DNA of 64,000 bases. Origin: a virus. The translations under genes and the position numbers were made by a program. A model generated the notes under the pieces. The model was not told where the DNA came from and did not search any database. It saw only the letters and a program-made list of their open reading frames with translations. Below are positions 2,524 to 63,725 of this stretch, in pieces (position 1 is the first letter of the stretch; each line of letters begins with the position of its first letter). Where the stretch lies: UHGV virus genome UHGV-0129253; one strand, given 5' to 3'.

Positions 2524-2737
2524 AGCAGAGTTATTTCAGAAAATATCGGCTCTCGCGACTGAATGTCACGCTATAGCATCTGAGCTTGATGTTGGCGGTG
2601 AACGAACCGAGATGTTCGAAATATACAGTGTGCTGCGCAATCTCTGTCGGCGTGGCTACGCCACTCAAGTAGGGCGAATGACTAACCCACTACTCTCATC
2701 CTGTGATGAGGATGACTCGGATGAGGATGACGAATGA
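2516..2737 (+). CDS. Small hypothetical protein with acidic C-terminus (DEDDSDEDDE)
   Basis: GTG start at 2516 with AGGAG ~9 nt upstream; the ORF track's longer start overlaps the upstream gene. Confidence 0.45.
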   Translation: MNKAELFQKISALATECHAIASELDVGGERTEMFEIYSVLRNLCRRGYATQVGRMTNPLLSSCDEDDSDEDDE

Positions 2738-3399
2738 TGCATAAATCAGTAGCCGGTGAGTTTCAGAAGGAAGTCGATAATACTACCGTTCTATTGGACG
2801 ATATTTTAAGCATTCTCGCGCTTCTTGAGGCTGGCGATTGGTCAGAACATTGCACTAAAACGGAGTTAGGCGGTCGGCTTGAAAGAGAGATTACACGACT
2901 TATTGGTGATGCGCAGGAAGCTACAGTCACTAGTTATGAGTTAATCGCTGAAGCCTGGCGTTTGATGGATGGACAAGATCCTAAAACTAGCGATTGGCAT
3001 AGCAAGGCTTCGAAGTATTTAAATTCCGATAGGGTAGAAAAAGTTGATGATGTGAAACCGAAGCCAGTAGACCACGGTTTCCGCGATAACTGCGAATGCT
3101 CTAGTTGCCAGACCACGGCCCGTATTTGTTCCGAATTGACAGATAAGTCCAGCCTAATCTACGAAGTTAATGTAGGCGGTAATACATGGGTCGAATGCAC
3201 AAGAGCTGCATACGTAAGAGCAAAAGACAAGGGTGAATTAACCAGAGTTGTTGCCCATCACCCAAATAATGAGCTTAAAGATCACCAGATTAGAGAACTG
3301 GTGAACGAGTTGCGGGATATTGCGGTTCAGTACCACGGAACGCAGCAATTGCGGGAGAAAATTGCCAGAGCAGTGAACAACTCAGTCCGTAAAAAATAA
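2734..3399 (+). CDS. Hypothetical protein (Cys cluster CECSSCQ)
   Basis: 221-aa ORF, ATGA overlap with upstream gene. Confidence 0.5.
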   Translation: MMHKSVAGEFQKEVDNTTVLLDDILSILALLEAGDWSEHCTKTELGGRLEREITRLIGDAQEATVTSYELIAEAWRLMDGQDPKTSDWHSKASKYLNSDRVEKVDDVKPKPVDHGFRDNCECSSCQTTARICSELTDKSSLIYEVNVGGNTWVECTRAAYVRAKDKGELTRVVAHHPNNELKDHQIRELVNELRDIAVQYHGTQQLREKIARAVNNSVRKK

Positions 3400-3786
3400 G
3401 CAATAGTACGATAAAGAGGCCCCATGCTCTTGATGGGGCCTGTAGCAACTAGCGTTATGGACGCTGGTTTACGTACTCAATGATCGCTTTGATAATCGCG
3501 AACATCGGCGGCACGATTTTGAACAGTAAGTTAACCATAACAGGCCTCACTTAGTTTTATCGCGCCTAGCTGCAAATACCTTTGGGCTTGCCTTTGCAGT
3601 TGCAATATCTGTAGTCGCCAGATACTTACGGCACGATTTCGAGTTAAGGTAAGGTTTTAGAGTCACCAAAAACCTGGACTTAAATCTTCTTTGAGAACAA
3701 CGATGTTTAGTAAATGGTCATTATTACCTGGTATGACCACTCAACGTTTCTTGATGAATCCAGTACATTCGGTTAATCTTAATTCA

Positions 3787-3870
3787 GTCGCCAGATACTT
3801 ATGGCTCAGGAACAGAGCCGCAAACTCTGTTTCCTTTTAAAAAGCCCAGCCTAGTCAACTGGGCTTTTTA
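3787..3870 (+). ncRNA. Candidate small RNA: repeated 16-mer AGTCGCCAGATACTTA, then hairpin AGGAACAGAG/CTCTGTTTCCT, then terminator hairpin plus T-run
   Basis: No ORF; two hairpins and a terminator in ~65 nt; the 16-mer also occurs at 3615. Confidence 0.25.
3843..3870 (+). terminator. Rho-independent terminator (AGCCCAG...CTGGGCT + TTTTT)
   Basis: 7-bp stem, 9-nt loop, T5 run. Confidence 0.55.
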
Positions 3871-4164
3871 ATGTCTATTTTTAACCCAACATACCCTCAA
3901 TACTGCAACATCAGTGTCTTGCGAATTAAGATAGTGTGAATAGATTTTTCATGCAAGTGCATAAGCCTGTGGATAACTCAGGAAGGAAAAAGTGACTTCT
4001 GCGCACTTTAGACAGGACAAGGCGTTCGAAAAAGTCAATGGGAAGAAAAAATTTGTTAAAAATAACGTTTGTTTGAATTGTATATATTTATGCCTTTCAA
4101 TAGTTAGCATCTTATTAACATCTTTTTTAAGAGATAGAGTTCAAAAATATATAGCTTCAATATA

Positions 4165-4184
4165 TACTGTATGTGTATACAGTA
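4165..4184. promoter_or_regulatory. LexA (SOS) box TACTGTATGTGTATACAGTA
   Basis: Perfect CTGT-N8-ACAG, 17 nt upstream of the UmuD'-like start. Confidence 0.7.
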
Positions 4185-4200
4185 TTAAGAGGCGAGTATT

Positions 4201-4590
4201 ATGGGCTTCCCTTCTCCTGCGGCGGATTATGCTGAGAGCCGTATTTCTCTTGATCAGCAGATAATTAGACATCCTTCAGCGACCTACTTCATGAGGGCAG
4301 CTGATAGTCATCATCGTGAGGGAATATTACAGGGTGCATTGCTGGTGGTCGATTCCTCACTTACCCCGGTTGATGGTTCTCTGCTTGTATGCGCTCTGGA
4401 TGGGGAATATCGCGTAAAAAGATACCGGAAGTACCCACGTCAGCATCTGGAGGATTTAAGAACCGGTAAGAAGGAAGCATTGCCAAAGGATGACGATGGA
4501 TGCACGGGCAGCAATGCCGTGTTTGGTGTGATCACTCACATTATCAACGACGCAAGAAGTGGCGAGTTTGATGATTGTCCTGTGATGTAG
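4201..4590 (+). CDS. UmuD'-like SOS mutagenesis protein (S24 LexA-like peptidase fold), HumD-like pre-processed form
   Basis: MGFPSPAADY...HPSATYF... begins at the UmuD Cys24-Gly25 cleavage position; LexA box upstream; no umuC partner in window. Confidence 0.75.
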   Translation: MGFPSPAADYAESRISLDQQIIRHPSATYFMRAADSHHREGILQGALLVVDSSLTPVDGSLLVCALDGEYRVKRYRKYPRQHLEDLRTGKKEALPKDDDGCTGSNAVFGVITHIINDARSGEFDDCPVM

Positions 4591-4627: not shown

Positions 4628-5728
4628 TCACACTGCGCGGAATGCGATTTCGCCAGGTATTACTTCACCTTGCCAATACATTTGGGCAGCAACGCGATCT
4701 GCGAGGTCACGATAAATAGCCGTAAATTCACTATCTGGACGACTAATAACGGTTGGTGTTCCGTTATCCAGATCTTCACGAAGAGAGATATGAAGTGGCA
4801 TTTGGCCTAACAACTGCGTGTTGTATTTCTCGGCCAGTTTCTGTGCGCCACCGGTGCCAAAAATTGGCTCGTGATGACCGCAGTTACTGCAAATATGCAC
4901 ACTCATGTTTTCGACGATACCCAGTACCGGCACTTCGACTTTTTCGAACATCACAATGCCTTTCTTCGCATCGATCAGCGCGATGTCTTGCGGCGTAGTT
5001 ACCACAACCGCACCAGTTACAGGAATGTTCTGCGCCAGCGTCAACTGAATATCACCAGTGCCCGGCGGCATATCGAGAACGAGATAGTCCAGATCAGGCC
5101 ATATAGTTTCCTGCAACATCTGCATCAGCGCCTTGCTGGCCATCGGTCCACGCCACACCATTGCATTGTCGTCGGTGACCAGATAACCAATAGAGTTGGT
5201 TGCCAGGCCATGAGACATGATAGGTGCCATGTGAGTACCGTCAGGTGAGGTTGGACGTTGGTTTTCCGCGCCCAGCATGGTTGGAATTGATGGACCATAG
5301 ATATCGGCATCCAAAATACCAACTTTCGCACCTTCAGCAGCCAACGCCAGTGCCAGGTTTACCGCCGTGGAGGATTTACCCACGCCGCCCTTGCCTGAGC
5401 TGACGGCGATAATGTTCTTAACGCCATTAATGCCTGGTTGGTTTTTGACGCGCTTAAGCGTGGCAATGTTGTACGACAGCTTCCAGTCAATAGCCTTTGC
5501 GCCAGTGATACGGAGCAGATCACCACTACATTGCTCTTTCAGGTCTTCAAAAGGCTTATTCCACACGAAAGGCATGATTAGTTCGACATGCAGTGTGTCA
5601 TCCATCAACGCAACATGGTGTAACGCTTTAAGCGTAGTCAGGTTGTGTTTCAGGGTTGGGTGCTGAAAATTAGCCAGCGTACCGGCTACCATTGCTCTCA
5701 GGGCATCCGGCGATTTGGACTCGCTCAT
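4628..5728 (-). CDS. mrp: Iron-sulfur cluster carrier ATPase Mrp/ApbC
   Basis: 366 aa, P-loop SSGKGGVGKS, near-full-length match to enterobacterial Mrp; divergent from metG as in E. coli. Confidence 0.9.
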   Translation of the reverse strand: MSESKSPDALRAMVAGTLANFQHPTLKHNLTTLKALHHVALMDDTLHVELIMPFVWNKPFEDLKEQCSGDLLRITGAKAIDWKLSYNIATLKRVKNQPGINGVKNIIAVSSGKGGVGKSSTAVNLALALAAEGAKVGILDADIYGPSIPTMLGAENQRPTSPDGTHMAPIMSHGLATNSIGYLVTDDNAMVWRGPMASKALMQMLQETIWPDLDYLVLDMPPGTGDIQLTLAQNIPVTGAVVVTTPQDIALIDAKKGIVMFEKVEVPVLGIVENMSVHICSNCGHHEPIFGTGGAQKLAEKYNTQLLGQMPLHISLREDLDNGTPTVISRPDSEFTAIYRDLADRVAAQMYWQGEVIPGEIAFRAV

Positions 5729-5885
5729 CCCGTCTCCTTTATTTTAATTTGCGCAATTGTCGCCTTGTAGTGTACTCCAGCTACGGCATTTAATCATTTA
5801 TGAGAAATGCTGTTATCACATGGCAGACATAAGGCCATTTTGTTACTATCAAGCCCCTTTTCACTACAAAGAAGTAATGCCTACT

Positions 5886-7919
5886 ATGACCCAAGTCGCG
5901 AAGAAAATTCTGGTGACGTGCGCGCTGCCGTACGCTAACGGCTCAATCCACCTCGGCCATATGCTGGAGCACATCCAGGCTGATGTCTGGGTTCGTTACC
6001 AGCGAATGCGCGGCCACGAGGTTAATTTCATCTGTGCCGACGATGCCCACGGTACGCCGATCATGCTGAAAGCGCAGCAGCTTGGTATCACACCGGAGCA
6101 GATGATTGGCGAAATGAGTCAGGAACACCAGACTGATTTCGCAGGCTTTAACATCAGCTATGACAACTATCACTCGACGCACAGCGAAGAGAACCGCCAG
6201 CTGTCTGAGCTTATCTATACTCGCCTGAAAGAGAACGGTTTTATTAAAAACCGCACTATCTCTCAGTTGTACGATCCGGAAAAAGGCATGTTCCTGCCGG
6301 ACCGTTTTGTAAAAGGCACCTGCCCGAAATGTAAAGCGCCAGATCAATACGGCGATAACTGTGAAGTCTGCGGCGCAACATATAGCCCGACTGAATTGAT
6401 CGAGCCGAAATCGGTGGTTTCTGGCGCTACCCCGGTAATGCGTGATTCTGAACACTTCTTCTTTGATCTACCCTCTTTCAGCGAAATGTTGCAGGCATGG
6501 ACCCGCAGCGGCGCGTTGCAGGAGCAGGTGGCGAACAAAATGCAGGAATGGTTTGAATCCGGCCTGCAACAGTGGGATATCTCCCGCGATGCGCCTTACT
6601 TCGGTTTTGAAATTCCGAACGCGCCGGGCAAATATTTCTACGTCTGGCTGGACGCGCCGATTGGCTACATGGGTTCCTTCAAGAATCTGTGCGACAAGCG
6701 CGGCGATACCACCAGCTTCGATGAATACTGGAAGAAAGACTCCACCGCCGAGCTGTACCACTTCATCGGTAAAGATATTGTTTACTTCCACAGCCTGTTC
6801 TGGCCTGCCATGCTGGAAGGCAGCAACTTCCGCAAGCCGACCAACCTGTTTGTTCACGGCTATGTGACGGTGAACGGCGCGAAGATGTCCAAGTCTCGCG
6901 GCACCTTTATTAAAGCCAGCACCTGGCTGAATCATTTTGACGCTGACAGCCTGCGTTACTACTACACTGCGAAACTCTCTTCGCGCATTGATGATATCGA
7001 TCTCAACCTGGAGGATTTCGTTCAGCGCGTGAATGCCGATATCGTGAACAAAGTGGTTAACCTGGCCTCTCGTAATGCAGGCTTTATCAACAAGCGTTTT
7101 GACGGCGTGCTGGCAGGCGAACTGGCTGACCCGCAACTGTACAAAACCTTTACTGATGCCGCTGAAGTGATTGGCGAAGCATGGGAAAGCCGCGAATTTG
7201 GTAAAGCTATCCGTGAAATCATGGCACTGGCTGACCTGGCTAACCGCTATGTCGATGAACAGGCTCCGTGGGTGGTGGCGAAGCAGGAAGGTCGCGATGC
7301 CGATCTGCAGGCGATTTGCTCTATGGGCATTAACCTGTTCCGCGTGCTGATGACTTACCTGAAACCGGTACTGCCGAAACTGACTGAACGTGCAGAAGCA
7401 TTCCTGAATACAGAACTGACCTGGGATGGTATCCAGCAACCGCTGCTGGGCCATAAAGTGAATCCGTTCAAGGCACTGTATAACCGTATCGATATGAAAC
7501 AGGTGGAAGCACTGGTGGAAGCATCCAAAGAAGAAGTGAAAGCCACAGCCGCACCGGTAACTGGCCCACTGGCTGACGACCCGATTCAGGAAACCATCAC
7601 CTTTGACGACTTCGCCAAAGTTGACCTGCGTGTGGCGCTGATTGAAAACGCGGAGTTTGTTGAAGGTTCTGACAAACTGTTGCGCCTGACGCTGGATCTC
7701 GGCGGTGAAAAACGCAATGTCTTCTCAGGCATCCGTTCTGCTTATCCAGACCCACAGGCACTGATTGGTCGTCACACCATTATGGTGGCTAACCTGGCTC
7801 CGCGTAAAATGCGCTTCGGTATCTCCGAAGGCATGGTGATGGCTGCTGGCCCCGGCGGGAAAGATATCTTCCTGTTAAGCCCGGATGTCGGTGCTAAACC
7901 TGGCCACCAGGTTAAGTAA
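5886..7919 (+). CDS. metG: Methionine--tRNA ligase
   Basis: 677 aa from ATG 5886 ([25 protein letters not shown]...); HIGH-type and KMSKS motifs; the ORF track's 5757 start is an upstream artefact. Confidence 0.95.
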
Positions 7920-63478: not shown

Positions 63479-63553
63479 GATGGTGTAGCTCAGCGGTAGA
63501 GCAGTTGGCTGTTAACCAACTGGTCGGTGGTTCGAATCCACCCACCATCGCCA
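63479..63553 (+). tRNA. tRNA-Asn (anticodon GUU)
   Basis: Hand-folded cloverleaf: acceptor GATGGTG/CACCATC, D-stem GCTC/GAGC, anticodon loop CTGTTAA, T-arm GGTGG-TTCGAAT-CCACC, encoded CCA; unlike the enterobacterial tRNA-Asn as I recall it. Confidence 0.8.
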
Positions 63554-63558
63554 ATTTA

Positions 63559-63645
63559 GGGGAGTTAGTCCGTAGGGGCAGCGGGGTAGACTGTAAATCT
63601 ACTGTCATTGCGACTCGGGTGGTTCGACTCCATCACTCCCCACCA
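63559..63645 (+). tRNA. tRNA-Tyr (anticodon GUA), type II with long variable arm; D-arm non-canonical
   Basis: Acceptor GGGGAGT/ACTCCCC, anticodon arm GTAGA-CTGTAAA-TCTAC, variable-arm hairpin GTC-ATTGC-GAC, T-arm GGTGG-TTCGACT-CCATC, encoded CCA. Confidence 0.6.
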
Positions 63646-63649
63646 AATT

Positions 63650-63725
63650 GCCGGTTTAGCTCAGTTGGTAGAGCGCCTGCCTTGTAAGCAGGATGTCAGC
63701 GGTTCGATCCCGTTAACCGGCACCA
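63650..63725 (+). tRNA. tRNA-Thr (anticodon UGU)
   Basis: Acceptor GCCGGTT/AACCGGC, D-stem GCTC/GAGC, anticodon arm CCTGC-CTTGTAA-GCAGG, T-loop TTCGATC, encoded CCA. Confidence 0.8.

What the first reader, a model, noticed from the sequence alone, without database searches (positions are those of the whole stretch)
3480..3872. Noncoding block with a repeated 16-mer and a compact hairpin-plus-terminator unit (candidate small RNA)
AGTCGCCAGATACTTA occurs twice, ~174 bp apart, the first copy 17 nt after a TTGCAA -35-like hexamer. The second is followed within ~65 nt by a perfect 10-bp hairpin and a rho-independent terminator, with no ORF. The block lies between the early genes and the SOS-controlled humD-like gene, a typical place for a regulatory RNA.
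Basis: inference. Interest (0 to 1): 0.45.

Follow-up and report, generated by a model that had tools for sequence, protein, structure and literature searches.

The report
Unannotated small-toxin and antisense-RNA gene pair
The repeated 16-mer is the matching sequence shared by a predicted ~85-nt antisense RNA and the leader of an oppositely oriented mRNA for a 27-residue membrane-type peptide, which together look like a previously undescribed type I toxin-antitoxin cassette carried by E. coli phage-plasmids and related mobile elements.

Summary
The repeat is real: 19 of 20 nt match at 3613-3632 and 3786-3805, and chance predicts none. It is not a pair of promoters.

Copy 2 is the 5' end of a predicted ~85-nt plus-strand sRNA (3786-3871) with a conserved sigma-70 promoter, a hairpin and a terminator. 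Copy 1 lies in the structured 5' leader of a minus-strand mRNA.

The discrete ~420-bp cassette (3455-3877) was found at 63 fetched loci (43 distinct sequences) and in about 100 of 72,556 plasmids.
- The two repeat copies change together between lineages.
- All 11 internal differences between them keep a G.U wobble, but only for this strand assignment.
- A second 5-nt loop-loop contact also covaries.
- The peptide is under purifying selection.

The layout matches tisB/istR-1, zorO/orzO and dinQ/agrB. The peptide hits nothing in Pfam, NCBIfam, PHROGs or PDB, and the sRNA reaches no Rfam threshold.

Verdict: a new family of a known kind (type I toxin-antitoxin). Toxicity, the transcripts and the toxin promoter are untested.

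The parts
3417..3441 (-). Terminator-like hairpin downstream of the toxin ORF (probable 3' end of the toxin mRNA). It also lies just after the plus-strand ORF 2734-3399.
   Evidence: Terminator scan, 9-bp stem with 6 GC pairs; inverted repeat I10. The T-tail is weak (CTTTAT).
3455..3538 (-). Toxin candidate ORF: MVNLLFKIVPPMFAIIKAIIEYVNQRP (27 aa; ATG 3538-3536, TAA 3457-3455).
   Evidence: Translation. Conserved in all lineages. Mean pS 0.37 against pN 0.09; window vs L071 has 9 synonymous and 2 nonsynonymous differences. GRAVY 0.86, core 1.72.
3545..3548 (-). Shine-Dalgarno GAGG, 6 nt before the ATG.
   Evidence: Read from sequence; conserved as GAGG/AAGG/GAGA in the alignment.
3527..3553 (-). 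Helix H5 (UAAGU 3553-3549 with ACUUA 3531-3527), which encloses the SD and the AUG.
   Evidence: RNAalifold consensus and pair counts: 96.7% paired, variants are G.U.
3560..3636 (-). Multibranch domain of the toxin 5' leader: closing helix P2 (3636-3630 with 3566-3560), target hairpin P3 (3626-3619 with 3611-3604, loop GGCGACU) and invariant hairpin P4 (3599-3590 with 3579-3570).
   Evidence: 97% of cells paired; covariation above all 500 shuffles. U.G pairs in P2 are valid only on the minus strand.
3613..3632 (-). Repeat copy 1 = predicted sRNA binding site on the toxin mRNA, 75-94 nt upstream of the AUG.
   Evidence: In the intermolecular helix, 99.1% of cells are paired and 11 of 20 pairs show changes on both sides.
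3652..3675 (-). Leader hairpin H1. Its apical UGACU (3665-3661) is complementary to the sRNA terminator loop.
   Evidence: Helix 99% paired, with 3 pairs changed on both sides. The loop-loop contact covaries as AGUCA/UGACU, AAUCA/UGAUU and CAUCA/UGAUG.
3676..3750 (-). Interval that must hold the toxin promoter and transcription start. Not located.
   Evidence: No minus-strand sigma-70 match here. It contains the palindrome 3715-3721/3733-3739. A TGATTTAAA-like box is conserved in non-E. coli lineages only.
3751..3779 (+). sRNA promoter: -35 TTGATG (3751-3756), 17-nt spacer, -10 TAATCT (3774-3779).
   Evidence: Read from sequence. Conserved as TTGAWG-17-TAAKMT across lineages, with sequence between -10 and +1 free to vary. 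It scores below the scanner's 9-of-12 rule.
3786..3871 (+). Predicted antitoxin sRNA (~85 nt): 5' pairing domain 3786-3805 (repeat copy 2), hairpin 3808-3835, terminator 3837-3871 with loop CCUAGUCAA 3850-3858 (CUAG fits YUNR; AGUCA 3853-3857).
   Evidence: Fold z = -5.0. All 16 lineage variants folded share the same three-part shape. On the covariance-model alignment 97.2% of cells pair and 7 pairs change on both sides, 0/500 shuffles.

Best explanation
The block is a type I toxin-antitoxin-like cassette (3417-3871) with the non-overlapping, divergent layout of tisB/istR-1, shoB/ohsC, zorO/orzO and dinQ/agrB.

The parts:
- A leftward mRNA carries a leader of at least ~140 nt (H1 to the AUG) and encodes a 27-aa hydrophobic peptide. 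Its promoter has not been located.
- A rightward ~85-nt sRNA starts at A3786.
- The two genes lie on opposite strands, so the direct DNA repeat makes the first 20 nt of the sRNA complementary to the leader, 75-94 nt upstream of the AUG.

Proposed mechanism (inferred):
1. The sRNA terminator loop, which carries a YUNR motif and AGUCA, kisses the loop of leader hairpin H1 (UGACU).
2. The sRNA 5' tail invades the loop of target hairpin P3 and extends to a ~20-bp duplex. This opens P2 and P3.
3. The duplex blocks translation (for example at a ribosome standby site) and/or is cut by RNase III.
4. If the element is lost, a shorter-lived sRNA would decay first and the peptide would damage the membrane. 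That would stabilise the low-copy phage-plasmid.

Shown here by computation: the ORF, both RNA structures and both inter-RNA contacts. Inferred: transcription, toxicity, RNA half-lives, the nuclease and the biological role.
For: 1. Repeat specificity. 19/20 match, none expected by chance.
2. Cassette conservation. The whole cassette is conserved from the toxin stop codon to the sRNA terminator. It was found at 63 fetched loci, 43 of them distinct in sequence. Homology in diverged loci ends at 3455 and 3877.
3. Co-variation of the two copies. Examples are GTCGCCGGTTAACAAC in both copies of L003, GTCGCCAGTGTTTTAC in both of L005 and GCTGCCAGATACATT in both of L004.
4. Wobble asymmetry. Among 12 distinct copy pairs, the 11 mismatches at positions 2-20 are all (copy 1, copy 2) = (C,T) or (A,G). 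These give G.U only if the mRNA is minus-strand and the sRNA plus-strand. None goes the other way.
5. Formal intermolecular test. 99.3% of cells paired, 13 of 25 pairs changed on both sides, 0/500 shuffles on all five measures, and slid controls at 26-40%.
6. Loop-loop contact. It is 100% paired with two compensatory positions.
7. Purifying selection on the ORF, plus a good SD.
8. Leader and sRNA structures covary.
9. Sequence constraint. The cassette is identical in Cyrano while the adjacent noncoding 3876-4200 differs by 8%.
10. Decayed copy. L078 has a single repeat copy, so H1 and both promoters are deleted. Its ORF carries a premature stop.
11. Geometry. It matches zorO/orzO, where pairing lies 72-92 nt upstream of the start, the UTR is ~180 nt and the sRNA is divergent (PMC2887945). 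It also fits the T1TAdb description of this layout group (PMC8594479).
Against: - There is no expression, toxicity or stability data.
- The toxin promoter could not be found.
- The peptide matches no toxin family. It is less hydrophobic overall than DinQ (GRAVY 0.86 vs 1.79).
- Copy-to-copy identity could partly come from gene conversion between direct repeats rather than from selection on pairing.
- Many covarying cells are inherited, not independent events.
- The toxin-side terminator has a weak T-tail.
Confidence: 0.77

Rival explanations
1. The sRNA does repress this small ORF by base pairing, but the peptide is not a toxin or addiction factor. It would be a benign small membrane protein of the phage-plasmid whose synthesis is simply kept low or timed.
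For: All RNA-level evidence fits this equally well. The peptide has no homology to known toxins. It carries two Lys and one Glu within the hydrophobic stretch.
Against: The combination of features is the recurrent signature of type I toxins: a hydrophobic peptide under 30 aa, a long structured leader, SD/AUG placed in a helix, and a dedicated adjacent antisense RNA (PMC2887945, PMC4147584). The cassette moves as a self-contained ~420-bp unit between unrelated mobile elements. The one copy lacking the sRNA promoter also has an inactivated ORF.
Confidence: 0.15
2. One reading: two promoter-associated copies of a 16-mer (an operator or promoter element). One drives a stand-alone trans-acting sRNA whose targets lie elsewhere; copy 1 belongs to another plus-strand promoter.
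For: TTGCAA lies upstream of copy 1. The covariance model of the sRNA gives a weak hit at 3613-3686 on the plus strand (20 bits).
Against: TTGCAA is not conserved in homologues. Copy 1 lies inside helices whose G.U pairs are valid only on the minus strand. The wobble asymmetry between copies has no explanation for a DNA-binding site. No other match to the 20-mer exists in the window.
Confidence: 0.04
3. The repeats are leftovers or substrates of DNA-level events (a duplication kept alike by gene conversion, or a recombination site). The hairpin-terminator only ends neighbouring transcription units.
For: One natural deletion between the two copies exists (L078). The terminator is bidirectional in form. 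Copy 1 plus H1 weakly resembles the sRNA gene, which suggests a duplication origin.
Against: Gene conversion would not yield only wobble-compatible differences. It would not homogenise a 5-nt loop while leaving the flanking stems unrelated. It also does not explain the conserved promoter, the ORF under selection or the covarying intramolecular helices.
Confidence: 0.04

Closest known systems
zorO/orzO (and zorP/orzP) of E. coli O157:H7
   Same: - The sRNA is divergent and does not overlap the toxin gene.
- The sRNA 5' end pairs with the toxin 5' UTR: 18 nt, 72-92 nt upstream of the start there, against 20 nt, 75-94 nt upstream here.
- The peptide is about the same size (29 vs 27 aa).
- A short variable stretch sets sRNA/target specificity (PMC2887945, PMC3919570).
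   Different: - No sequence relationship was found. The Rfam OrzO-P model scores 21.8 bits on the wrong strand here and 33.3 bits in L016, against a gathering score of 60. The peptide gives no NCBIfam or Pfam hit.
- zor/orz is chromosomal, whereas this cassette sits on phage-plasmids, plasmids and viral contigs.
- A second, loop-loop contact is predicted here.
tisB/istR-1
   Same: Divergent layout; 21-nt pairing far upstream of the RBS; the sRNA acts through its 5' end; a structured leader; standby-site competition and RNase III as mechanisms (PMC4147584).
   Different: tisB is LexA-controlled, but no LexA box lies in this cassette. There is no homology of the peptide or of the sRNA.
dinQ/agrB (agrA)
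   Same: The same direct-repeat logic is visible in the K-12 locus (L036). Both peptides are 27 aa. AgrB is the best Rfam match to the window sRNA, with full-length alignment and a similar hairpin loop AGAGCCNCNAACUC.
   Different: The score is 27.6 bits against a gathering score of 40, and the hit is absent from diverged homologues. hhalign against DinQ finds nothing. dinQ is SOS-regulated and chromosomal, with about 30 nt of pairing.
par (fst RNA I / RNA II) of pAD1 and the Ldr/Fst toxin superfamily
   Same: - Plasmid-borne.
- Recognition uses dispersed contacts that include a terminator-loop interaction with a U-turn-type motif (established knowledge).
- The peptide has a central Pro and an aromatic-polar-basic C-terminus resembling LdrD (35% identity over 20 columns).
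   Different: - The par RNAs are convergent and share a terminator, and Rdl overlaps the ldr leader.
- The peptide resemblance is not significant (hhalign probability 10%; no Pfam hit).
hok/sok
   Same: A type I module on low-copy plasmids that acts in post-segregational killing. This is the role proposed here.
   Different: Sok is a cis-overlapping antisense RNA acting through mok. Hok is ~50 aa. No similarity was found.

Membership tests
Type I toxin-antitoxin systems (class) | Small (<60 aa) hydrophobic protein encoded by one partner | tested here: met
   27-aa ORF with a hydrophobic core, conserved under purifying selection.
Type I toxin-antitoxin systems (class) | Adjacent small RNA with extended complementarity to the toxin mRNA | tested here: met
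   20-nt duplex plus a 5-nt loop contact; 99.3% paired with compensatory changes; differences between the copies are wobble-only. The transcripts themselves are predicted, not observed.
Type I toxin-antitoxin systems (class) | Protein toxic on overproduction, and toxicity neutralised by the sRNA | not testable with these tools
   Needs expression experiments.
Non-overlapping divergent group (tisB/istR-1, shoB/ohsC, zor/orz, dinQ/agrB) | asRNA gene lies 5' of the toxin mRNA, on the opposite strand, without overlap, and pairs through its 5' end with the 5' UTR | tested here: met
   sRNA 3786-3871 (+); target 3632-3613 (-). Definition from PMC8594479. The absence of overlap depends on the unlocated toxin start lying right of 3675 and left of 3786.
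TisB, ShoB, ZorO, DinQ, Ldr, Hok, Ibs toxin families | Peptide matches the family profile | tested here: not met
   No hit at E<=10 in Pfam, NCBIfam or PHROGs, nor in PDB. DinQ: no alignment.
Ldr/Fst superfamily | Detectable profile similarity to Ldr or Fst | tested here: inconclusive
   hhalign against LdrD: 20 columns, 35% identity, probability 10%. No hit to any Pfam family at E<=10.
Rfam antitoxin RNA families (AgrB, OrzO-P, IstR, OhsC, Sok, Rdl, Sib and others) | Score at or above the family's gathering threshold | tested here: not met
   Window: AgrB 27.6 against 40; OrzO-P 21.8 against 60, on the wrong strand. Homologues: OrzO-P 33.3 against 60, RNAI 32 against 47, AgrB only in the E. 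coli type. The best family differs between lineages, so these are shape-level matches.
SOS-induced type I toxins (tisB, dinQ, symE) | LexA box at the toxin promoter | tested here: not met
   The only LexA box in the window is at 4165-4184, for the S24 peptidase gene.

The most novel reading that the evidence does not exclude
This is a new, horizontally mobile type I toxin-antitoxin family. Recognition uses two co-evolving contacts: a terminator-loop kiss and a 5'-tail duplex. Its lineages have diversified into mutually non-cross-reacting specificity groups. The cassette would then act both as an addiction module and as a compatibility or exclusion determinant among competing phage-plasmids and prophages of Enterobacteriaceae.
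Probability: 0.2. Interest if true: 0.65.

Novelty: new member of a known kind. Interest (0 to 1): 0.5.

Why it matters
- **An unannotated function.** The cassette would explain an unannotated, strongly conserved stretch in about 120 complete E. coli records. It would add a maintenance or killing function to a widespread group of ~85-125 kb phage-plasmids.
- **A test of current views on mobility.** The divergent sRNA layout has so far been described for chromosomal loci said to lack plasmid homologues and to spread poorly by horizontal transfer (PMC2887945, PMC11264685). Here that layout travels as a ~420-bp cassette between unrelated mobile elements.
- **A ready experimental system.** The natural series of co-varying sRNA/target pairs could be used to study antisense specificity.

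Tried and rejected
- **tRNA or tmRNA remnant.** ARAGORN finds nothing in the region.
- **Rfam membership.** No match reaches gathering score in the window or in 10 homologous loci.
- **Literature search.** Peptide and DNA strings gave no paper. "phage-plasmid" plus "type I toxin" gave nothing relevant.
- **Alternative pairing of GGCGCGAU (3566-3559) with the in-ORF copy AUCGUGCC (3519-3512).** This was suggested by the partial repeat CGGCACGATTTYGA at 3509 and 3629. That repeat is at chance level on its own. Most non-E. coli lineages have GTA instead of GTG at that codon, which breaks the helix. Not adopted.
- **Toxin promoter.** No sigma-70 match on the minus strand. Candidates such as AATAAT 3725-3720 with TTGAGT, or a TGnTTTAAA-like box in other lineages, have wrong spacing or are not conserved in the window.
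- **Species-representative genome scan.** It yielded only 3 loci.
- **ParA idea.** The neighbouring gene taken at first for ParA is an Mrp/ApbC-type NTPase, so the cassette is not shown to sit in a partition region.

Full report
**What the window is.** The region lies on a ~108-kb E. coli phage-plasmid.
- The 801 bp from 3400 to 4200 match Escherichia phage Cyrano (96.8%), 88 PLSDB plasmids and 120 complete E. coli records. Of the 120 places, 110 are on plasmids. No feature is annotated under any listed match.
- To the left are Ead/Ea22- and DUF551-type genes and an unassigned 221-aa ORF (2734-3399).
- To the right are an S24 peptidase (humD-like, 4201-4590) behind a LexA box (4165-4184), an Mrp/ApbC-type NTPase and a methionyl-tRNA synthetase.

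**Checking the observation.** Most of it holds.
- The 16-mer is present twice. The match extends to 19/20 over 3613-3632 and 3786-3805, with spacing 173.
- With three mismatches allowed these are the only matches in 64 kb, and no shuffle produced any.
- The hairpin (3808-3835) and terminator (3837-3871) are real. The stretch folds far better than shuffles (z = -5.0).
- The hairpin has a bulge, so it is not a perfect 10 bp.
- TTGCAA ends 7 nt before copy 1.
- Rfam gives only sub-threshold matches, the best being AgrB at 27.6 bits against a gathering score of 40.

**The lead that changed the reading.** A sensitive search showed that 3542-3695 resembles unannotated DNA in a Klebsiella IncFIB plasmid and a Citrobacter plasmid. 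Their alignment showed hairpins with compensatory changes. Pattern scans of viral, genome and metagenome collections, filtered with an nhmmer profile, then gave 63 loci with the full element, 43 of them distinct.

In diverged loci, homology to the window starts at 3455 and ends at 3872-3877. Nothing outside matches. The element is therefore a discrete ~420-bp cassette. PLSDB holds it in about 100 of 72,556 plasmids: Escherichia 83, Citrobacter 9, and a few each in Enterobacter, Klebsiella, Kosakonia and Shigella. Of these, 93 are non-mobilizable.

**A small ORF on the other strand.** The left end of the cassette encodes MVNLLFKIVPPMFAIIKAIIEYVNQRP on the minus strand (ATG 3538, stop 3455-3457). 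GAGG lies 6 nt upstream of the ATG.
- The ORF is kept in every lineage.
- Across 13 distinct 27-codon versions, mean pS is 0.37 and mean pN is 0.09. Window against L071 shows 9 synonymous and 2 nonsynonymous differences. It is therefore a real coding sequence.
- The core is hydrophobic.
- It matches nothing in Pfam, NCBIfam, PHROGs or PDB at E<=10.
- It occurs only twice, unnamed, among about 15 billion proteins.
- A profile comparison with LdrD shows a weak resemblance: a central Pro and a Y/W-x-N-x-R tail, 35% identity over 20 columns, probability 10%. DinQ gives no alignment.

**The sRNA.** Upstream of copy 2, all lineages keep TTGAWG, a 17-nt spacer and TAAKMT. In the window these are TTGATG 3751-3756 and TAATCT 3774-3779. 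The bases between -10 and the repeat vary freely, and the repeat begins at the seventh base after the -10, A3786. This places the 5' end of an ~85-nt RNA at the first base of copy 2. That is inferred from sequence, not observed.

All 16 lineage variants that were folded give the same shape: a 5' domain, a hairpin and a terminator. On a covariance-model alignment, 97.2% of cells pair and 7 pairs change on both sides. No shuffle out of 500 reaches the observed covariation.

**The target and the leader.** Copy 1 lies in a conserved minus-strand structure.
- Hairpin H1 spans 3675-3652.
- A multibranch domain is closed by P2 (3636-3630 with 3566-3560). It holds the target hairpin P3 and the invariant hairpin P4.
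- Helix H5 encloses the SD and the AUG.
- Overall 97% of cells pair and covariation exceeds all shuffles.
- Several pairs are U.G or G.U, which would be mismatches on the plus strand.
- The sRNA site (3632-3613) covers the 5' arm of P2, the 5' arm of P3 and the P3 loop GGCGACU. That loop is complementary to the single-stranded sRNA 5' end, AGUCGCC.

**Evidence that the two RNAs pair.** Genes on opposite strands that share a direct DNA repeat produce complementary RNAs. Four observations support pairing.
1. *Joint change.* Between lineages the two copies change together by up to 6-7 bases, and the P3 5' arm changes with them.
2. *Wobble asymmetry.* Among 12 distinct copy pairs, the 11 differences at positions 2-20 are all C-to-T or A-to-G from copy 1 to copy 2. 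These preserve G.U only for minus-strand mRNA and plus-strand sRNA. None goes the other way, and transversions occur only at position 1.
3. *Formal test on 17 lineages.* 99.3% of cells pair and 13 of 25 pairs change on both sides. All five measures exceed 500 shuffles, and slid controls reach only 26-40%.
4. *Duplex energies.* Cognate duplexes are -38 to -45 kcal/mol. The L003 and L005 types stand apart from the others.

**A second contact.** The sRNA terminator loop (CCUAGUCAA, with CUAG fitting the YUNR motif) is complementary to the apex of H1.
- The window type has AGUCA/UGACU.
- Ten lineages have AAUCA/UGAUU.
- Three lineages have CAUCA/UGAUG.
- The contact is always 5/5 paired.
- L071 and its close relative L158 differ at this contact, which argues for more than one event.

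A weak covariance-model hit at 3613-3686 suggests that the target plus H1 and the sRNA gene arose by duplication.

**Supporting detail.**
- The cassette is identical between the window and Cyrano, while the next 325 noncoding bases differ by 8%. In three of the four other relatives compared it evolves two to three times more slowly than that noncoding flank, at roughly the rate of the flanking genes. In L034 the cassette (7.8%) differs slightly more than the flank (5.8%).
- One metagenomic copy (L078) has a single repeat, so H1 and both promoters are deleted. Its ORF has a stop at codon 21. This is what one expects if losing the antitoxin is tolerable only once the toxin is dead.

**Comparison with known systems.**
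- The geometry is close to zorO/orzO: pairing 72-92 nt upstream of the start, a ~180-nt UTR, 18 nt at the sRNA 5' end, RNase III-dependent and Hfq-independent, with a short variable region setting specificity (PMC2887945, PMC3919570).
- IstR-1 pairs over 21 nt and competes with standby ribosomes (PMC4147584).
- The K-12 dinQ/agrB locus shows the same direct-repeat logic.
- Membership in any of these families fails on the peptide and on the sRNA score. Homologues hit different Rfam families at sub-threshold scores.
- No LexA box lies in the cassette.

**Open points.**
- The toxin promoter and transcription start were not found.
- Toxicity, transcription, RNA half-lives, the nuclease and the biological role are all inferred.
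- Post-segregational killing is the role proposed, because most hosts are low-copy, non-mobilizable phage-plasmid-sized replicons. That is inference only.

**Verdict.** The repeat, however, marks an sRNA/target pair of an undescribed type I toxin-antitoxin-like cassette, not two promoters.

Noticed in passing
L003 3782-3891, L004 3784-3891, L011 4724-4814, L016 945-1060 and relatives: In one group of lineages the toxin transcript carries two tandem small ORFs. The first is a 28-aa peptide (MQMLLLFLKLAHPVTVIIMTLLGFWKNR) placed just after the leader. About 110 nt downstream lies a 26-aa relative of the window peptide (for example MVNLLMKLLPPLVSIIVMVVDYFNKR). nhmmer detects the duplication at DNA level.
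   Followed up: partly
L078 10033-10304 (metagenome contig Ga0209281_1000619): A decayed copy with only one repeat, apparently from recombination between copy 1 and copy 2. H1 and both promoters are gone, the ORF has a TAG at codon 21 and the terminator is degenerate.
   Followed up: yes
window 3509-3522 and 3629-3642: A partial third repeat, CGGCACGATTTYGA, occurs inside the toxin ORF and again in the leader next to the sRNA site. It is at chance level alone. In the E. coli type it would allow GGCGCGAU (3566-3559) to pair with either copy, but the in-ORF pairing is not kept in other lineages.
   Followed up: partly
window 3715-3721 / 3733-3739: Palindrome TGGTCAT...ATGACCA lies between leader hairpin H1 and the sRNA promoter. 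E. marmotae (L002) has a compensatory change (TGGTCGT/ACGACCA). It could be an operator or the 5' hairpin of a longer toxin mRNA. It is present only in the Escherichia-type lineages.
   Followed up: no
L071, L158, L035 (region aligned to window ~3695-3745): Tandem 10-11-nt repeats (GAACGGTTTA) lie upstream of the leader. The number of units differs between close relatives. Related GGAACG motifs occur in L024 and L016.
   Followed up: no
L071, L035, L158, L110, L016, L155, L159, L102 (target site): In lineages whose repeat reads ...GATACAT, the minus strand gains an ATG inside the sRNA site. This opens a 26-codon upstream ORF (MYLATTDT...), which is fused in frame to the toxin in L102 and L039. 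It is absent from the window type.
   Followed up: no
window 3613-3686 (+): The sRNA covariance model gives a weak hit (20 bits) to copy 1 plus H1 read on the plus strand. This suggests that the leader segment and the sRNA gene are ancient duplicates.
   Followed up: partly
window 3568-3577 and 3817-3826: The sRNA hairpin loop region AGCCGCAAAC resembles AGCTGCAAAT of the invariant leader hairpin P4. This may be a third short complementarity. The sRNA loop varies between lineages while P4 does not (read).
   Followed up: no
window 3949-4200: The right part of the intergenic region is ~79% identical to the region upstream of humD in P1, P7 and SJ46. P7 annotates small upf ORFs there, and P1 record M95666 annotates a promoter and a dnaA box. 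The toxin-antitoxin cassette itself is absent from P1 and P7.
   Followed up: partly
window 4628-7919: The phage-plasmid carries an Mrp/ApbC-type iron-sulfur carrier NTPase (4628-5728, minus strand) and a full-length methionyl-tRNA synthetase with a tRNA-binding domain (5757-7919). In E. marmotae (L002) a der GTPase gene sits between the humD-like gene and apbC, and part of the humD-like gene is missing.
   Followed up: partly
window 63479-63725: A cluster of three tRNA genes: Asn-GTT, Tyr-GTA and Thr-TGT.
   Followed up: no
L102 4526-4855, L071 5955-6284; L005 3016-3399, L102 5930-7789, L035 6274-7980: In otherwise unrelated elements the cassette again has a UmuD/HumD-like S24 peptidase gene on its sRNA side. 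Often a C5 DNA methyltransferase-like gene ends next to the toxin side (the family assignments were read by eye from sequence motifs and were not scanned).
   Followed up: no
L034 (JAEWTL010000044.1, labelled Bacillota MAG): This contig is 91% identical to window 3193-4590. It is most likely a mis-binned Escherichia-type phage-plasmid fragment.
   Followed up: no
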